Part shown: positions 12,001 through 21,000 of the stretch, piece by piece
How positions within the stretch are numbered: position 1 is the first letter of the stretch
How the letters are laid out: each line of letters opens with the position of its first letter
Program-made: the position numbers
Source of the DNA: Escherichia coli
GTDB lineage: Bacteria > Pseudomonadota > Gammaproteobacteria > Enterobacterales > Enterobacteriaceae
Length of the DNA stretch: 64,000 bases
Strand: one strand, 5' to 3'
NCBI RefSeq assembly: GCF_003334765.1
Contig: NZ_QOWT01000005.1

Positions 12001-15000
12001 TTATTGCGCTGATTATCATGCTCTTAGCCCAGGGTGTGCAGGCACACAATTTCGTCACTGGCAAAACGGTTACCCCCGTTTATATCCAGGAAGGCGGCGA
12101 GCTGCTTCTGAATAGCGACGACGAAATTCACTACCAAAAGTGGAACAGCACACAGCTGGCGGGAAAAGTCCGCATTATCCAGTATATCGCCGGGCGTAAG
12201 TCGGCGAAGAAAAAGAACTCACTGTTAATTAAAGCGGTTGAAGCGGCAAACTTTCCGCAGGATCGTTTTCAGCCCACCACCATTGTGAACACCGATGATG
12301 CCATCTTTGGTACTGGCTATTTTGTCGTTGGCAAAATCGAAAAAAATAAACGCCGCTATCCGTGGGCGCAATTCGTTATTGACGGCAATGGACTGGGACG
12401 CGTTGCCTGGCGGTTGCCGGAGCAGAGTTCAACCATTCTGGTGCTGAATAAAGACGGGCAAATTCAGTGGGCAAAGGACGGCAGCCTGACGCCGGAAGAG
12501 GTAGATCATGTCATTGCGCTGGCGCAGAAACTGATCAATGAATAAAAAATTCAAAGGATTGAGGGTGTTAGTGAGATGAAGCTGGTTGAACACTACATCA
12601 TGCGTGGTACGCGCCGTCTGGTGCTGATTATCGTCGGTTTTCTGATCTTTATTTTCGCCAGCTACTCCGCACAGCGTTATCTGACCGAAGCGGCAAATGG
12701 GACCTTAGCTCTTGATGTTGTGCTGGATATCGTTTTCTACAAAGTGCTGATTGCACTGGAGATGTTGTTACCTGTTGGTCTGTATGTGTCAGTTGGCGTG
12801 ACGCTAGGGCAGATGTATACCGACTCGGAAATTACCGCTATCTCTGCGGCGGGGGGCAGTCCGGGACGCTTGTACAAAGCCGTTCTTTATCTGGCGATAC
12901 CGCTAAGTATTTTTGTCACCCTTCTGTCGATGTATGGTCGGCCGTGGGCTTATGCGCAGATTTATCAACTGGAGCAACAGTCGCAGTCGGAGCTGGATGT
13001 TCGCCAGTTGCGGGCAAAGAAATTTAACACTAACGATAACGGACGAATGATCCTTTCGCAGACGGTTGATCAGGATAATAATCGCCTGACTGACGCGCTG
13101 ATTTATACTTCTACTGCCAATCGAACCCGCATTTTCCGCGCCCGTTCGGTTGATGTGGTTGACCCATCACCTGAGAAACCGACCGTTATGTTGCATAACG
13201 GGACCGCCTATCTTCTCGATCATCAGGGGCGTGACGACAACGAACAGATCTACCGTAATCTGCAATTACATCTGAATCCGCTGGATCAAAGCCCTAACGT
13301 CAAACGCAAAGCAAAATCGGTCACGGAGCTGGCGCGCTCCGCCTTTCCTGCCGATCATGCCGAACTGCAATGGCGACAAAGCCGTGGCCTGACAGCATTG
13401 TTGATGGCGCTGCTGGCCATTTCATTAAGTCGGGTAAAACCGCGGCAAGGGCGATTTTCAACGTTATTGCCACTGACGTTGCTGTTTGTTGCCATTTTTT
13501 ATGGCGGCGACGTCTGCCGTACGCTGGTGGCTAACGGTGCGATTCCCCTCATTCCTGGTTTGTGGTTAGTACCCGGACTCATGCTAATGGGCCTGCTGAT
13601 GCTGGTCGCACGCGACTTCTCTTTGCTGCAGAAATTTTCCCGATGAATGTTTTCAGTCGCTATTTAATCCGTCATCTCTTTCTCGGTTTTGCCGCCGCCG
13701 CAGGGCTATTGCTGCCGCTTTTTACCACCTTCAACCTGATTAACGAACTGGATGATGTCAGCCCGGGCGGTTATCGCTGGACTCAGGCGGTGCTGGTGGT
13801 GCTGATGACCTTACCGCGTACACTGGTCGAACTTTCGCCGTTTATCGCATTATTGGGAGGGATTGTTGGCCTGGGGCAGTTATCGAAAAACAGTGAGCTT
13901 ACCGCCATTCGCAGCACTGGGTTTTCTATCTTCCGTATTGCACTGGTGGCGCTGGTTGCCGGGATATTGTGGACTGTTTCGTTAGGCGCGATAGATGAGT
14001 GGGTGGCGTCGCCATTGCAGCAACAGGCGCTGCAAATCAAATCGACTGCCACCGCGTTGGGGGAGGACGATGACATTACCGGCAATATGCTTTGGGCCAG
14101 GCGCGGTAATGAATTTGTGACGGTGAAATCGCTGAACGAGCAGGGCCAGCCTGTGGGCGTGGAGATATTTCATTATCGCGACGATCTCTCGCTCGAATCC
14201 TACATTTTTGCACGCAGTGCCTCCATTGAAGACGACAAAACGTGGATCCTGCATGGTGTGAATCATAAAAAATGGTTGAATGGCAAAGAAACGCTGGAAA
14301 CATCAGATAATCTTGCCTGGCAATCGGCCTTCACCAGTATGGATCTTGAAGAGTTATCGATGCCGGGGAATACTTTTTCTGTCCGTCAGCTTAATCATTA
14401 CATCCATTATTTGCAGGAAACCGGACAACCCAGCAGCGAATACCGCCTTGCACTGTGGGAAAAACTGGGGCAACCGATCCTGACCCTGGCGATGATTTTG
14501 CTGGCTGTGCCGTTCACCTTTAGCGCCCCGCGCTCGCCAGGGATGGGTAGCCGTCTCGCTGTAGGCGTCATCGTTGGCTTACTCACCTGGATCAGCTATC
14601 AAATCATGGTCAATCTGGGGTTGCTATTTGCGTTGAGTGCACCTGTTACCGCGCTCGGTTTACCGGTAGCGTTTGTGCTGATGGCGTTGAGCCTGGTGTA
14701 TTGGTATGACAGACAACATTAAACCCGCCGTGGCGCAACACCACGGCGGGCTCACATTACTGCTTCAGAGTAGCAAATGCCTGAATGATGGCATCGATTT
14801 GCTCATGACTGTGGGCAGCGTTTACGCTACAGCGCAGCAGAGTGATGCCTGCAGGCGCGGCAGGTGGCAGGATAAGATTCACATAAACGCCCAGCGAAAT
14901 AAGCTCGCGCCAGATGCGTAAACCGTCCTCTTTCGAACCGATTATTACCGGCACTACCGGGCTAATATGTGAACTTAACTCATAACCCAGTTTTTGCAGA

Positions 15001-18000: not shown

Positions 18001-21000
18001 ACAATTCATAGCCAAACGGCGGCGCAACGGAAACGGTGCCGCGATTTTTACTGATCAATTTAAGCCATTGCAGAGGACGCATGGCAAAATCCTGAGTGCG
18101 CAAATAATCTACTGAGAGTTGCGTGGCGACGGGGGTCAGGAGAAAGCCGACCAGTCCCATATCATGGTAGAAAGGCAGCCAGGAGACGCAGCGGTCGCCA
18201 GGGCGTAATTTTATGCCATCGTGGCTTATAGCACGTAGATTAGCCATCACTTCGCGATGGGTGATAATGACGCCACGGGGAAAACGGGTGCTGCCGGAGG
18301 TGTACTGGAGGTAGGCGATATCGTTCGGAACTGGACGCTGGAGCGCAACATCGGCTTCCGGTAATGCCTTAAACCAGGCGTGGCTTAAAACATGTAATTC
18401 GGGGTTGTTGTTATGCGTCGCGGCATTGACCAGTGGCAACCACTCATCACCAGTGATAATGGCTGCGGGCTGGCAACTTGCCAGTAAACCCTGCAGCTTG
18501 CCGCTCCAGGAATCCCGCTGACCGACGCCCATGGGAATCGCCAACGGGACGGCGACTAAGCCGGCATACTGGCAGGCAAAAAAAGCCTCTACGAACCCGC
18601 TACTGGTTTCGGCAATCAGTGCCACGCGATCGCCTTTTTTCAGGTTTAGCGATAACAACCGCTTCGCACCAGCTTCGGCACGCGCTTTTAACGTCTGATA
18701 TTCCAGTTGATCTTCAAGTTGGCAACGTCTGTCATAAAAATTCATTCCAGCGCTACTCAGAGCGGCATAGTCCAAAGCATCAACCAGCGTTGGAAAATCG
18801 GCATAGCGCATAGGTAGGGAATGCGTAAAGATTTTATTAGACATATACACCACGAAAAAATTGGATATCAAAAATAAAATGACAATAATGCGGTGGATTA
18901 TATAGGCATAAAAGATAAATGAGATAGTATTTTCATCAGTGTGAAAATGAACATTGATTTAAATAATGAATTTGAGTTTTTTGTTTTTATTGTGAATGAT
19001 ATTTAATTTATGAATATATTAAGAAGGAGCCTTGTCCGGTCGCCTTAAATCGACAAAAGGCATTGTGGCGCTTCTGTGTAGTCTCTGACCTTATCGTAAT
19101 CATTAATAAATACTATTTATTCGTCGTTTGTATTCATTGGGTTGATTATTAAGGTGCCGTTCGTTGCTGTTGCAACCTGTTTGTCACCGTTAATTATTTG
19201 TTACCCACAGAACTATGGAATGCGATCTGCTGATGATTAAAATTGAAAAAGTAATTAATAAAAATGACCTTAAGGCATTTATCGCTTTTCCGTCATCACT
19301 TTATCCCGACGATCCAAACTGGATACCCCCTTTATTCATTGAACGCAACGAGCATTTGTCTGCGAAAAATCCGGGGACGGACCATATCATCTGGCAGGCG
19401 TGGGTGGCAAAAAAAGCGGGGCAGATAGTTGGGCGTATTACCGCGCAAATAGATACCTTGCACCGCGAGCGTTACGGCAAAGATACCGGTCATTTCGGCA
19501 TGATTGACGCCATTGATGATCCGCAGGTTTTTGCCGCGTTGTTTGGCGCAGCGGAAGCGTGGTTGAAGTCACAAGGTGCAAGTAAGATCAGCGGGCCTTT
19601 CAGCCTGAATATCAATCAGGAAAGCGGATTACTGATTGAAGGTTTTGACACTCCGCCCTGTGCGATGATGCCACACGGCAAACCGTGGTATGCCGCGCAT
19701 ATTGAACAACTGGGTTATCACAAAGGCATTGATTTACTGGCGTGGTGGATGCAGCGAACCGATCTCACTTTCTCTCCGGCGCTAAAAAAACTGATGGATC
19801 AGGTGCGCAAAAAAGTGACCATTCGCTGCATCAATCGCCAGCGGTTTGCCGAAGAGATGCAGATCCTGCGTGAGATTTTCAATTCTGGCTGGCAGCACAA
19901 CTGGGGATTTGTGCCGTTTACCGAACATGAATTCGCGACCATGGGCGATCAACTTAAATATCTGGTGCCGGACGATATGATCTACATCGCTGAGATTGAT
20001 TCTGCACCCTGCGCGTTTATTGTCGGCTTGCCAAACATCAACGAGGCGATTGCCGATCTGAACGGATCGCTCTTTCCCTTCGGCTGGGCAAAATTGCTGT
20101 GGCGTTTAAAAGTCAGCGGTGTGCGAACTGCGCGAGTACCGCTGATGGGCGTGCGGGACGAGTATCAGTTCAGCCGCATCGGCCCGGTGATTGCGTTGTT
20201 ATTGATTGAAGCCTTACGCGATCCGTTTGCCCGCCGGAAGATCGATGCGCTGGAGATGTCATGGATCCTCGAAACCAATACAGGCATGAATAACATGCTG
20301 GAACGCATTGGGGCAGAGCCGTACAAGCGTTACCGATTGTATGAAAAGCAGATTTAATACCAGATCCTGTTAAGCGCAGGGGCGATCCCTCGCCCCTCGG
20401 GGAAAGGGTTAGGGTGAGGGTGAAAACTCGGCTCACATTCCCACCTTGTTCATCTCCAGCGGCACCGCCGAGCGAATCAAATGGTGGCCTTCCAGCTCGA
20501 TATCGTGGAGATTCTTTTTCACGGTCCGCACATGATCGCGTGCTGCGCGCTGGGCGACGTGCGGCAGCCGCTGCAACACCGCGTTGTAGATCCGCGCATG
20601 CTGGCGATCGATCTGCTTTTTTTGCTGTGGTCGATGGTAGAGATTATTTACGCTGGCAAACACTGAATTAAACATCAGATCGGTCAATGATTGCAGCGTA
20701 AACACCAACACCTGATTGTGAGAAGCCTGACAAATGGCGAGATGGAAAGCGTGATCCAACTGCGCATGTTCGATCAGCGAAATCTCTTTGTTGTTCTCAC
20801 TGGCGGCGAGCATTTTTTCATAACAGCGGGTTATCACAACAAAATCAGCCTGGGTTCCCAGCGTTGCCGCCAGCCTTGCCGATTCACCCTCCAGCAATGC
20901 GCGAACGTCGAGCAGATCGTACAGCGTTCGCGGCTGCGTACTGAACAGATGGATCAGCGGGCTGGTGTCCTGCACCCGATTAAGCCGTGCGACACGAGAA

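What the first reader, a model, noticed from the sequence alone, without database searches (positions are those of the whole stretch)
14757..18871. Four-gene operon resembling a bacterial sphingolipid (long-chain base) synthesis core: acyl-AMP ligase, reductase, ACP, alpha-oxoamine synthase
Seen in sequence: four minus-strand genes joined by overlapping stop/start codons encode an adenylate-forming enzyme (YTSGSTRFPRGV), an NAD(P)-Rossmann reductase (TGATGFIG), an acyl carrier protein and a PLP-dependent alpha-oxoamine synthase (GTFSKSLASIGG). Established knowledge, recalled and to be verified: in Caulobacter crescentus a serine palmitoyltransferase, a dedicated ACP, an acyl-ACP synthetase and an epimerase/dehydratase-family reductase together make the ceramide backbone. 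Inference: this operon makes an acyl-ACP-derived amino-lipid (sphingoid-base-like, or a CqsA-type aminoketone). E. coli is not classically regarded as a sphingolipid producer.
Basis: partly seen in the sequence, partly recalled or inferred. Interest (0 to 1): 0.85.

Follow-up and report, generated by a model that had tools for sequence, protein, structure and literature searches.

The report
Known E. coli sphingolipid-precursor operon

Summary
The alpha-oxoamine synthase passes NCBI's curated serine palmitoyltransferase model (599 bits, cut-off 500). It fails the BioF, Kbl and CqsA models. RefSeq already names it spt.

The window proteins match E. coli BL21(DE3) ECD_02851-02854 closely: 550/562, 291/304, 82/82 and 387/390 residues. 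Padilla-Gomez et al. 2022 (PMC9386255) cloned those genes. They showed a 4'-phosphopantetheine on the ACP, and 3-oxo-sphinganine formation when ligase, ACP and Spt were co-expressed. The ligase is EcFAAL (crystal structure 3PBK, about 98% identical), which rejects CoA and loads a holo-ACP.

The divergent neighbour yghO is the homologue of the Caulobacter ceramide synthase and models as a tandem GNAT. The gene order ligase-reductase-ACP-spt recurs in most of 80 species loci, including Caulobacter. The operon is in 4068 of 5426 complete E. coli genomes and under strong purifying selection. In K-12 an IS5 replaces it.

Still open: whether E. coli makes sphingolipid natively, and what the conserved flanking genes do (second LptF/LptG, YghQ flippase, YghRST, YtfJ, an unknown 274-aa protein).

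Verdict: already known; modest interest.

The parts
14757..15929 (-). spt: serine palmitoyltransferase (PLP-dependent alpha-oxoamine synthase). The PLP lysine is K244. H137, D210, H213 and R366 correspond to H159, D231, H234 and R390 of Sphingomonas SPT.
   Evidence: NF047599 scores 599 bits against a cut-off of 500. PDB SPTs 2JG2 and 2X8U score about 375 bits, and residues were mapped from that alignment. It is 387/390 identical to BL21(DE3) ECD_02854, which was assayed in PMC9386255. RefSeq names it spt.
15929..16177 (-). acpR: dedicated acyl carrier protein with the DLGLES motif; Ser39 is the 4'-phosphopantetheine site.
   Evidence: It gives weak ACP family hits, all below the housekeeping AcpP cut-offs. 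It is 82/82 identical to ECD_02853, which was labelled by beta-alanine in vivo (PMC9386255).
16209..17123 (-). epi/cerR-type extended SDR (Rossmann motif TGATGFIG); presumed 3-keto reductase of the pathway.
   Evidence: It matches only SDR/epimerase families, all below equivalog cut-offs. It is 291/304 identical to ECD_02852. It is 31-33% identical to the gene at the same position in Caulobacter loci L071 and L078. The activity of the E. coli protein has not been tested.
17120..18844 (-). aasR: fatty acyl-AMP ligase / acyl-AcpR synthetase, the protein known as EcFAAL. The longest ORF runs to a TTG at 18871.
   Evidence: NF006624 scores 871 bits against a cut-off of 600. PDB 3PBK scores 1283 bits with about 10 differences in 574 residues. 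It is 550/562 identical to ECD_02851. It rejects CoA and loads holo-ACP (PMC8460268).
18845..19214 (.). 370-bp AT-rich (31.6% GC) intergenic region between the divergent aasR operon and yghO; presumed to hold the divergent promoters.
   Evidence: GC is 0.316 here against 0.52 for the operon. The sigma-70 consensus scan found no more sites than in shuffled sequence, so the promoters are inferred, not located.
19215..20357 (+). yghO: tandem-GNAT N-acyltransferase, homologue of Caulobacter ceramide synthase (aca / bCerS, CC_1154). This is the fifth core gene.
   Evidence: It has no Pfam or NCBIfam hit. The AlphaFold model has pLDDT 90.3, and its best PDB folds are tandem GNATs 2WPW and 5KF1 at E about 1e-15. 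It is 42-43% identical to the linked gene in Caulobacter loci and 44% to CC_1154 in PMC9386255 Table S2. It is 380/380 identical to ECD_02850.
14720..14754 (-). 16-bp, GC-rich hairpin directly after the spt stop codon, between the convergent spt and lptG2 genes; a possible terminator.
   Evidence: The terminator-like scan found it. The T-run is poor, so its function is inferred only.
12576..14722 (+). Second copies of the LPS-export permeases: lptF2 (12576-13646) and lptG2 (13643-14722). They are candidate exporters of the sphingolipid.
   Evidence: TIGR04407 scores 320 bits and TIGR04408 scores 305 bits, both above cut-off. LptF/G paralogues lie near spt in many other phyla. LptF2/G2/C2 were proposed for sphingolipid transport in Caulobacter (PMC11324152). 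The role in E. coli is inferred.
7385..12545 (.). Conserved flank: yghT (7385-8077, minus strand), yghS (8251-8964), yghR (8996-9754), yghQ MOP-family flippase (9800-11149), an unknown all-helical 274-aa protein (11149-11973) and YtfJ (11985-12545). These may serve head-group formation or transport.
   Evidence: They co-occur with the spt operon in at least 10 Enterobacterales genera, and partly in Luteibacter, Dyella and beta/gamma MAGs. dN/dS is 0.03-0.14. Family matches are weak or absent. A functional link is inferred, not shown.

Best explanation
The four genes are the E. coli version of the proteobacterial ('Rhodobacteria-type') sphingolipid entry pathway. AasR (EcFAAL) adenylates a free fatty acid. 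Because it cannot use CoA, it passes the acyl group to the 4'-phosphopantetheine arm of the dedicated carrier AcpR. Spt, a PLP enzyme with its Schiff-base lysine at K244, condenses acyl-AcpR with L-serine, with loss of CO2, to give 3-oxo-sphinganine. These three steps have been shown experimentally with proteins 98-100% identical to those in the window. The next steps are inferred by homology and synteny only. The divergently transcribed YghO, a tandem-GNAT homologue of bacterial ceramide synthase, would N-acylate the base. The SDR encoded inside the operon, a homologue of Caulobacter Epi/CerR, would reduce the 3-keto group, giving dihydroceramide. The order of these two steps is still debated for Caulobacter. 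Whether wild E. coli expresses the operon, which chain lengths it uses, and what the final lipid is have not been shown.
For: Spt identity rests on NF047599 at 599 bits against a cut-off of 500, with bioF at 334 against 426, Kbl at 297 against 460 and CqsA at 221 against 428. The best solved relatives are Sphingomonas SPTs at about 375 bits, and the catalytic H/D/H/K/R residues are conserved. The ligase passes the FAAL model NF006624 (871 against 600). It is about 98% identical to the crystal structure 3PBK of EcFAAL, which rejects CoA and acylates a stand-alone holo-ACP (PMC8460268). The window proteins match BL21(DE3) ECD_02851/52/53/54/50 at 550/562, 291/304, 82/82, 387/390 and 380/380 residues. 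PMC9386255 showed beta-alanine labelling of that ACP. It showed 3-oxo-sphinganine formation on co-expression of AasR-Ec, AcpR-Ec and SPT-Ec. It also showed that SPT-Ec prefers acyl-AcpR to palmitoyl-CoA, and it names epi and yghO as the remaining dihydroceramide genes. The order aasR-epi-acpR-spt, usually with a linked yghO homologue, recurs in most of 80 species-level loci, from Enterobacterales to Nitrospira, Geobacter, Nitrosomonadales and Caulobacter. YghO models as a tandem GNAT. dN/dS is 0.03-0.11 for the five genes, and the operon is present in 4068 of 5426 complete E. coli genomes.
Against: I found no report of sphingolipid made by unmodified E. coli. In PMC9386255, BL21(DE3) with empty vectors gave no 3-oxo-sphinganine, either in lipid profiles or in cell extracts, although that strain carries the locus. 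The native operon therefore appears silent under those conditions. The E. coli reductase and YghO have never been assayed. The reductase matches only generic SDR families, below every curated cut-off. EcFAAL crystallised with C12 and C14 adenylates, so the native long-chain base may be shorter than C18. Arg378 of Sphingomonas SPT is Leu354 here.
Confidence: 0.9

Rival explanations
1. The locus is functional as genes but cryptic in E. coli. It would be silenced, for example through the AT-rich promoter region, or induced only in an unknown niche, so that E. coli in ordinary culture contains no sphingolipid. This rivals the claim that E. coli makes sphingolipids, not the identification of the enzymes.
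For: BL21(DE3) with empty vectors showed no 3-oxo-sphinganine in vivo or in extracts, despite carrying the locus (PMC9386255). The aasR-yghO intergenic region is 31.6% GC against 52% for the operon. The held literature has no report of native E. coli sphingolipid.
Against: Strong purifying selection acts on all 13 cluster genes (dN/dS 0.03-0.14). The operon is retained intact in 4068 of 5426 genomes and in many enterobacterial genera. This argues that it is expressed and useful somewhere. Classical E. coli lipid work used mostly K-12, which lacks the operon.
Confidence: 0.45
2. The synthase is a CqsA-type autoinducer synthase, and the operon makes an alpha-hydroxyketone or aminoketone signal rather than a membrane lipid.
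For: It belongs to the same alpha-oxoamine synthase superfamily, and acyl-thioester substrates are used by both kinds of enzyme. The CqsA model NF005526 gives a hit of 221 bits.
Against: 221 bits is far below the CqsA cut-off of 428, while the Spt cut-off is passed. CqsA structures score 126 bits against about 375 for SPTs. The product with serine was 3-oxo-sphinganine (PMC9386255). A linked ceramide-synthase homologue is present.
Confidence: 0.02
3. The synthase is a spare BioF (biotin) or Kbl (threonine breakdown) enzyme, and the ligase is an ordinary fatty-acid CoA ligase.
For: Older database names for the same protein include '8-amino-7-oxononanoate synthase'.
Against: It is below cut-off for bioF (334 against 426) and Kbl (297 against 460). 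The ligase passes the FAAL model, and its crystal structure and biochemistry show that it rejects CoA. A dedicated ACP gene sits directly upstream of spt.
Confidence: 0.01
4. The FAAL-ACP pair loads fatty acid for a different product, such as a lipopeptide, polyketide or N-acyl amino acid, and Spt is incidental.
For: FAALs are best known as loaders for PKS/NRPS pathways. The FAAL literature that uses EcFAAL never mentions sphingolipid.
Against: There is no PKS or NRPS gene in the neighbourhood. The fixed gene order FAAL-reductase-ACP-spt is conserved across phyla. Co-expression of the three E. coli proteins suffices for 3-oxo-sphinganine.
Confidence: 0.02

Closest known systems
E. coli BL21(DE3) ECD_02851-02854 (aasR, epi, acpR, spt) plus ECD_02850 (yghO/aca), from Padilla-Gomez et al. 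2022, Front Microbiol 13:961041 (PMC9386255)
   Same: It is the same locus at the same chromosomal site, between glcC and the yghQRST genes. The proteins are 96-100% identical and the gene order is the same.
   Different: The differences are allelic only: 3 residues in Spt, 13 in the reductase and about 12 in the ligase. The window is 100% identical over the operon to strain B771, a human faecal isolate.
Caulobacter crescentus ceramide genes CC_1162-CC_1165 (spt, acpR, epi/cerR, aasR) and CC_1154 (aca/bCerS)
   Same: It has the same five protein types and the same aasR-epi-acpR-spt order. Second LptF/LptG copies and a flippase lie in the same region. Identities to Caulobacter-type loci are Spt 54-55%, AcpR 41-43%, Epi 31-33%, AasR 44% and YghO 42-43%.
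   Different: Caulobacter has genetic and lipidomic proof of ceramide and phosphosphingolipids, and carries head-group genes such as the ceramide kinase CpgB. I identified no CpgB-type lipid kinase in the E. coli cluster. The E. coli flank instead holds YghRST, YtfJ and an unknown 274-aa protein. AasR-Ec does not work with the Caulobacter AcpR in co-expression.
Sphingomonas paucimobilis and S. wittichii serine palmitoyltransferase (PDB 2JG2, 2X8U)
   Same: It has the same fold family, aligns end to end at about 375 bits, and conserves the PLP lysine and the His/Asp/His/Arg residues.
   Different: It scores better on NCBI's beta-proteobacterial Spt model (599 bits) than on the alpha-proteobacterial one (429 bits, below its cut-off of 670). 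Arg378 of the Sphingomonas enzyme is Leu here. In Sphingomonadaceae aasR is not next to spt.
EcFAAL, fatty acyl-AMP ligase of E. coli (PDB 3PBK)
   Same: It is the same protein, about 98% identical over 574 residues.
   Different: The FAAL papers treat it as a structural model and do not connect it to sphingolipid synthesis.
CqsA (CAI-1 autoinducer synthase), BioF and Kbl
   Same: All belong to the alpha-oxoamine synthase superfamily and use PLP chemistry.
   Different: All three curated models are missed by wide margins.

Membership tests
Proteobacterial (Rhodobacteria-type) sphingolipid core: AasR-AcpR-Spt plus Epi/CerR and Aca/bCerS | A serine palmitoyltransferase distinct from BioF, Kbl, CqsA and ALAS | tested here: met
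   NF047599 scores 599 bits against a cut-off of 500, and all other AOS models are below cut-off. PDB SPTs rank on top. The catalytic residues are conserved.
Proteobacterial (Rhodobacteria-type) sphingolipid core: AasR-AcpR-Spt plus Epi/CerR and Aca/bCerS | A dedicated ACP gene immediately upstream of spt, carrying 4'-phosphopantetheine | tested here: met
   The acp stop codon and spt start codon overlap, and the DLGLES serine motif is present. The sequence is 82/82 identical to AcpR-Ec, which was labelled with beta-alanine (PMC9386255).
Proteobacterial (Rhodobacteria-type) sphingolipid core: AasR-AcpR-Spt plus Epi/CerR and Aca/bCerS | A specialised acyl-ACP synthetase of the FAAL type that does not make acyl-CoA | tested here: met
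   NF006624 scores 871 against 600. The protein is about 98% identical to 3PBK. CoA rejection and ACP loading are published. Function with AcpR-Ec and SPT-Ec in vivo is also published.
Proteobacterial (Rhodobacteria-type) sphingolipid core: AasR-AcpR-Spt plus Epi/CerR and Aca/bCerS | An epimerase/dehydratase-family reductase (Epi/CerR) linked to spt | tested here: met
   An SDR with a Rossmann motif lies between aasR and acpR. It is 31-33% identical to the Caulobacter gene at the same position, and that position is conserved in most loci. Only homology and synteny were tested. Enzyme activity cannot be tested with these tools.
Proteobacterial (Rhodobacteria-type) sphingolipid core: AasR-AcpR-Spt plus Epi/CerR and Aca/bCerS | A GNAT-type N-acyltransferase (Aca/bCerS) | tested here: met
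   YghO is 42-43% identical to the linked Caulobacter gene and 44% to CC_1154. Its model is a tandem GNAT fold. The activity of the E. coli protein has not been tested.
Proteobacterial (Rhodobacteria-type) sphingolipid core: AasR-AcpR-Spt plus Epi/CerR and Aca/bCerS | Sphingolipid (ceramide) actually present in the organism | not testable with these tools
   No report was found in the held literature. BL21(DE3) with empty vectors showed no 3-oxo-sphinganine.
CqsA-type alpha-hydroxyketone autoinducer synthase | Score at or above the curated cut-off of NF005526 | tested here: not met
   The score is 221 bits against a cut-off of 428. CqsA structures score 126 bits.
BioF (8-amino-7-oxononanoate synthase) and Kbl (glycine C-acetyltransferase) | Score at or above the curated cut-offs of TIGR00858 and NF005394 | tested here: not met
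   The scores are 334 against 426 for bioF and 297 against 460 for Kbl.
Fatty acyl-CoA ligase (FadD-type) | Score at or above the FadD/ACSL model cut-offs, with CoA as acceptor | tested here: not met
   FadD NF006523 scores 100 against 884, and other acyl-CoA ligase models are also below cut-off. EcFAAL rejects CoA.

The most novel reading that the evidence does not exclude
The operon may be only the core of a 13-gene sphingolipid island, yghT to yghO (window 7385-20357), that is ancestral to Escherichia and many Enterobacterales. The flank holds three paralogous P-loop kinase-like proteins (YghR, YghS, YghT), an all-helical 274-aa protein with no known fold relative, the YghQ flippase, periplasmic YtfJ and a second LptF/LptG pair. 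In this reading those genes build a head group on the ceramide and carry it to the outer membrane through a variant Lpt machine. The poorly understood K-12 genes yghO, yghQ, yghR, yghS and yghT would then be the stumps left by an IS5 deletion of that island. Wild E. coli would make an outer-membrane sphingolipid under conditions not yet tried.
Probability: 0.35. Interest if true: 0.6.

Novelty: already known. Interest (0 to 1): 0.25.

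Why it matters
Sphingolipids were long thought absent from E. coli because the K-12 reference strain has lost this locus. Most natural and pathogenic E. coli, and the production strain BL21(DE3), carry it under purifying selection. The enzymology of the first steps is already published, so the finding adds no new biology. 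What remains worthwhile is whether wild E. coli puts a sphingolipid in its outer membrane, when it does so, and with what effect on host signalling, antibiotic or phage resistance, or tolerance of LPS defects, as seen in Caulobacter. The conserved flanking genes give concrete candidates for head-group and export steps.

Tried and rejected
- PADLOC defence models gave no hit for the four proteins, YghO or the 274-aa protein.
- Rfam at gathering threshold over 7000-21500 gave no RNA family.
- The sigma-70 promoter scan of 14500-19400 found 6 sites against 6.2 expected from shuffles, so it is uninformative. Terminator-like sites numbered 8 against 5.6 expected, and only the hairpin after spt stands out.
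- The repeat search in the aasR-yghO intergenic region found only short, chance-level repeats.
- Pfam and NCBIfam gave nothing for YghO or the 274-aa protein. The fold search of the 274-aa model had no match at E <= 0.001; the best was a CHAD domain at E 0.05 and TM 0.5.
- I tested the idea that YghR/S/T are the ceramide kinase CpgB. CpgB is a DAG-kinase-like enzyme with a GGDG motif. YghRST are P-loop proteins weakly like dTMP kinase. The idea is rejected.
- Olea-Ozuna et al. 2021 (doi 10.1111/1462-2920.15280) is not held in the library. Stankeviciute et al. 2022 is known to me here only through citations in other papers.
- Several literature searches for native E. coli sphingolipid, or for a function of yghQRST, found nothing relevant. 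Two searches failed for lack of capacity.
- I did not build a formal tree of alpha-oxoamine synthases. Placement rests on curated model cut-offs and PDB score ranks.
- The UniProt identity of the 'EcACP' used in PMC8460268 could not be checked against this ACP.

Full report
**Observation.** The ORF list shows four intact minus-strand genes at the stated place:
- a 390-aa alpha-oxoamine synthase (14757-15929);
- an 82-aa acyl carrier protein (15929-16177);
- a 304-aa Rossmann-type SDR (16209-17123);
- an adenylate-forming enzyme (17120-18871 as the longest ORF).

Two of the three junctions overlap: ATGA between ligase and reductase, and TAATG between ACP and synthase. The reductase and ACP genes are separated by 31 nt. 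The ligase most likely starts at the ATG at 18844. That is the RefSeq start in the identical strain B771, and the crystallised protein 3PBK aligns from the residue right after it.

**What the proteins are.** Against NCBI's curated models, the synthase scores 599 bits on the serine palmitoyltransferase equivalog NF047599, whose cut-off is 500. It falls below cut-off on every rival:
- bioF, 334 against 426;
- Kbl, 297 against 460;
- CqsA-type autoinducer synthase, 221 against 428;
- ALA synthase, 219 against 339.

Among solved structures the Sphingomonas paucimobilis and S. wittichii SPTs lead with about 375 bits. Kbl scores 201, BioF 175-182 and CqsA 126. The alignment to 2JG2 maps the known catalytic residues H159, D231, H234, K265 and R390 onto H137, D210, H213, K244 and R366. 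Arg378 of the Sphingomonas enzyme is Leu354 here.

The ligase passes the fatty acyl-AMP ligase model NF006624 (871 against 600) and fails all acyl-CoA ligase models. It is about 98% identical over its whole length to PDB 3PBK, 'EcFAAL'. The ACP gives only weak ACP hits, below the housekeeping AcpP cut-offs. The reductase matches only generic extended-SDR families.

**It is already annotated and published.** RefSeq labels the four genes 'fatty acyl-AMP ligase', 'NAD-dependent epimerase/dehydratase family protein', 'acyl carrier protein' and 'spt: serine palmitoyltransferase'. The window is 100% identical over the operon to E. coli B771, a human faecal isolate.

E. coli BL21(DE3) carries the same locus in the same context. 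The window proteins match its ECD_02851, 02852, 02853, 02854 and 02850 at 550/562, 291/304, 82/82, 387/390 and 380/380 residues.

Padilla-Gomez et al. 2022 (PMC9386255) studied exactly these genes. They report that:
- the ACP (AcpR-Ec) incorporates beta-alanine, so it carries 4'-phosphopantetheine;
- co-expression of AasR-Ec, AcpR-Ec and SPT-Ec yields 3-oxo-sphinganine;
- SPT-Ec prefers acyl-AcpR to palmitoyl-CoA;
- AasR-Ec supports 3-oxo-sphinganine formation with its own AcpR but not with the Caulobacter one;
- ECD_02852 (epi) and yghO/ECD_02850 (aca) are the homologues of the two remaining Caulobacter dihydroceramide genes.

Separately, the FAAL literature shows that EcFAAL binds lauroyl- and myristoyl-adenylate, rejects CoA, and transfers the acyl group to a stand-alone holo-ACP (PMC8460268 and PMC11837247). 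Those papers never mention sphingolipids.

**Independent checks.** A scan of one genome per species returned 80 loci that encode relatives of this Spt. tblastn with the E. coli proteins shows the order aasR-epi-acpR-spt in most of them, usually with a yghO homologue nearby. The genera and groups include:
- Enterobacterales: Escherichia, Pseudocitrobacter, Hafnia, Shimwellia, Tatumella, Erwinia, Mangrovibacter, Citrobacter, Pluralibacter, Cedecea, Rosenbergiella and Serratia;
- more distant groups: Nitrospira, Geobacter, many Gammaproteobacteria, Nitrosomonadales and Caulobacter.

Identities to the Caulobacter-type loci L071 and L078 are Spt 54-55%, AcpR 41-43%, Epi 31-33%, AasR 44% and YghO 42-43%. 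These agree with the published Table S2 values.

YghO has no Pfam or NCBIfam match. A confident AlphaFold model (pLDDT 90.3) is a tandem GNAT fold; its top PDB matches are 2WPW and 5KF1 at E about 1e-15. That fits an acyl-transferring ceramide synthase and not the 'DNA-binding regulator' label used in K-12.

**Population and evolution.** The operon is present at 80% coverage or more in 4068 of 5426 complete E. coli genomes, nearly always at 95-100% identity and on the chromosome. Its GC content (0.52) matches the surrounding genome. Against a divergent Escherichia (L005), dN/dS is 0.03-0.11 for the five core genes and 0.03-0.14 for the eight flanking genes. The neighbouring housekeeping gene glcD gives 0.012. 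The genes are therefore maintained by selection. In K-12 MG1655 an IS5 element sits between yghO and a truncated yghQ, and everything in between is missing. That explains why E. coli is not regarded as a sphingolipid producer.

**What is not known.** I found no report that unmodified E. coli makes sphingolipid. In PMC9386255, BL21(DE3) with empty vectors gave no 3-oxo-sphinganine, so the native operon seems silent under those conditions. The 370-bp region between the divergent aasR and yghO genes is 31.6% GC. Silencing through this region is only an inference; the consensus promoter scan was uninformative. The E. coli reductase and YghO have not been assayed, and the order of reduction and N-acylation is debated even for Caulobacter.

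**Surroundings.** On the plus strand upstream of the operon lie:
- yghT, yghS and yghR, three paralogues with a P-loop and only weak, below-cut-off similarity to dTMP kinase;
- yghQ, a MOP-family flippase;
- a 274-aa protein with no family match, whose confident all-helical model has no significant fold relative;
- YtfJ;
- second copies of LptF and LptG, which pass the curated LptF and LptG models.

This block travels with the spt operon in at least ten enterobacterial genera. yghRST, yghQ and the 274-aa gene also sit next to spt in Luteibacter and Dyella, and yghRST-type genes do so in beta- and gamma-proteobacterial MAGs. LptF/G paralogues lie near spt in Nitrospira, gamma-proteobacterial and Caulobacterales loci. 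For Caulobacter, second LptC/F/G copies and a flippase in the sphingolipid region have been proposed as the export route (PMC11324152). For E. coli I found no discussion of these neighbours. That is the basis of the 'novel case', which remains an inference from gene linkage.

**Verdict.** It is already known at the level of annotation, structure and biochemistry. Interest is modest (0.25) and rests on the open question of native production and on the uncharacterised conserved flank.

Noticed in passing
window 7385-14722: Eight genes flank the spt operon: yghT, yghS, yghR, the yghQ flippase, an unknown 274-aa protein, YtfJ, and second copies of LptF and LptG. They form a block that co-occurs with the operon in many Enterobacterales. 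Parts of it also sit next to spt in Luteibacter, Dyella, Nitrospira and beta/gamma MAGs. All are under purifying selection (dN/dS 0.03-0.14). The block may serve sphingolipid head-group formation and export.
   Followed up: partly
L004 (K-12 MG1655 NC_000913.3, 3129043-3132408), corresponding to window about 9800-20357: In K-12 an IS5 (IS5LO) lies between yghO and a truncated yghQ. The spt operon, lptF2/G2, ytfJ and the 274-aa gene are absent. The K-12 y-genes yghO, yghQ, yghR, yghS and yghT therefore look like remnants of the larger cluster.
   Followed up: partly
window 19215-20357: YghO is labelled 'putative DNA-binding transcriptional regulator' in K-12 and has no Pfam or NCBIfam hit. It models confidently as a tandem GNAT acyltransferase. 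Relatives in other enterobacteria begin at the Met corresponding to residue 7, so the true start may be the ATG at 19233.
   Followed up: partly
window 7385-9754: RefSeq names YghS and YghT 'dTMP kinase', but all three paralogues score far below the dTMP kinase cut-off (24-33 bits against 83). YghR has no sequence match in the PDB. The name looks like over-annotation.
   Followed up: partly
window 11149-11973: A conserved 274-aa protein has no family match. Its AlphaFold model (pLDDT 91) is an all-helical bundle with no significant PDB fold match; the best is a CHAD domain at E 0.05.
   Followed up: partly
window 18808-18871: Three different start codons are in use for the ligase: TTG at 18871 (longest ORF, 583 aa), ATG at 18844 (RefSeq B771, 574 aa, agrees with the 3PBK construct) and ATG at 18808 (RefSeq BL21(DE3), 562 aa).
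   Followed up: partly
window 18845-19214: The intergenic region between the divergent aasR operon and yghO is 31.6% GC, against 52% for the operon. It is a candidate site for silencing or regulation. No regulator gene is evident in the cluster.
   Followed up: no
window 14720-14754: A 16-bp GC-rich hairpin fills the gap between the convergent spt and lptG2 genes. It is a possible bidirectional terminator, although it lacks a good T-run.
   Followed up: no
window 15929-14757 (Spt residue 354): The residue equivalent to Arg378 of Sphingomonas SPT is Leu in this Spt, and it is not conserved in the clade alignment. Arg390 is conserved (R366 here).
   Followed up: no
window 46000-62200: A low-GC stretch (0.31-0.44) holds an ABC-transporter-type capsule locus. 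Divergent kpsM- and kpsT-like genes and two large genes with no family match (1169 and 332 aa) are on the plus strand. KpsS- and KpsE-family genes, a polysaccharide-export (KpsD-like) gene and further ORFs are on the minus strand. It lies downstream of glcA, sslE and further large plus-strand ORFs that I did not examine.
   Followed up: partly
protein P0047, protein P0126: Some database relatives of this Spt are fusion proteins. One is a 443-aa entry with ACP and aminotransferase domains, listed under a eukaryote source at 98% identity, which is probably contamination. Another is a 794-aa protein with the Spt part at residues 399-785.
   Followed up: no
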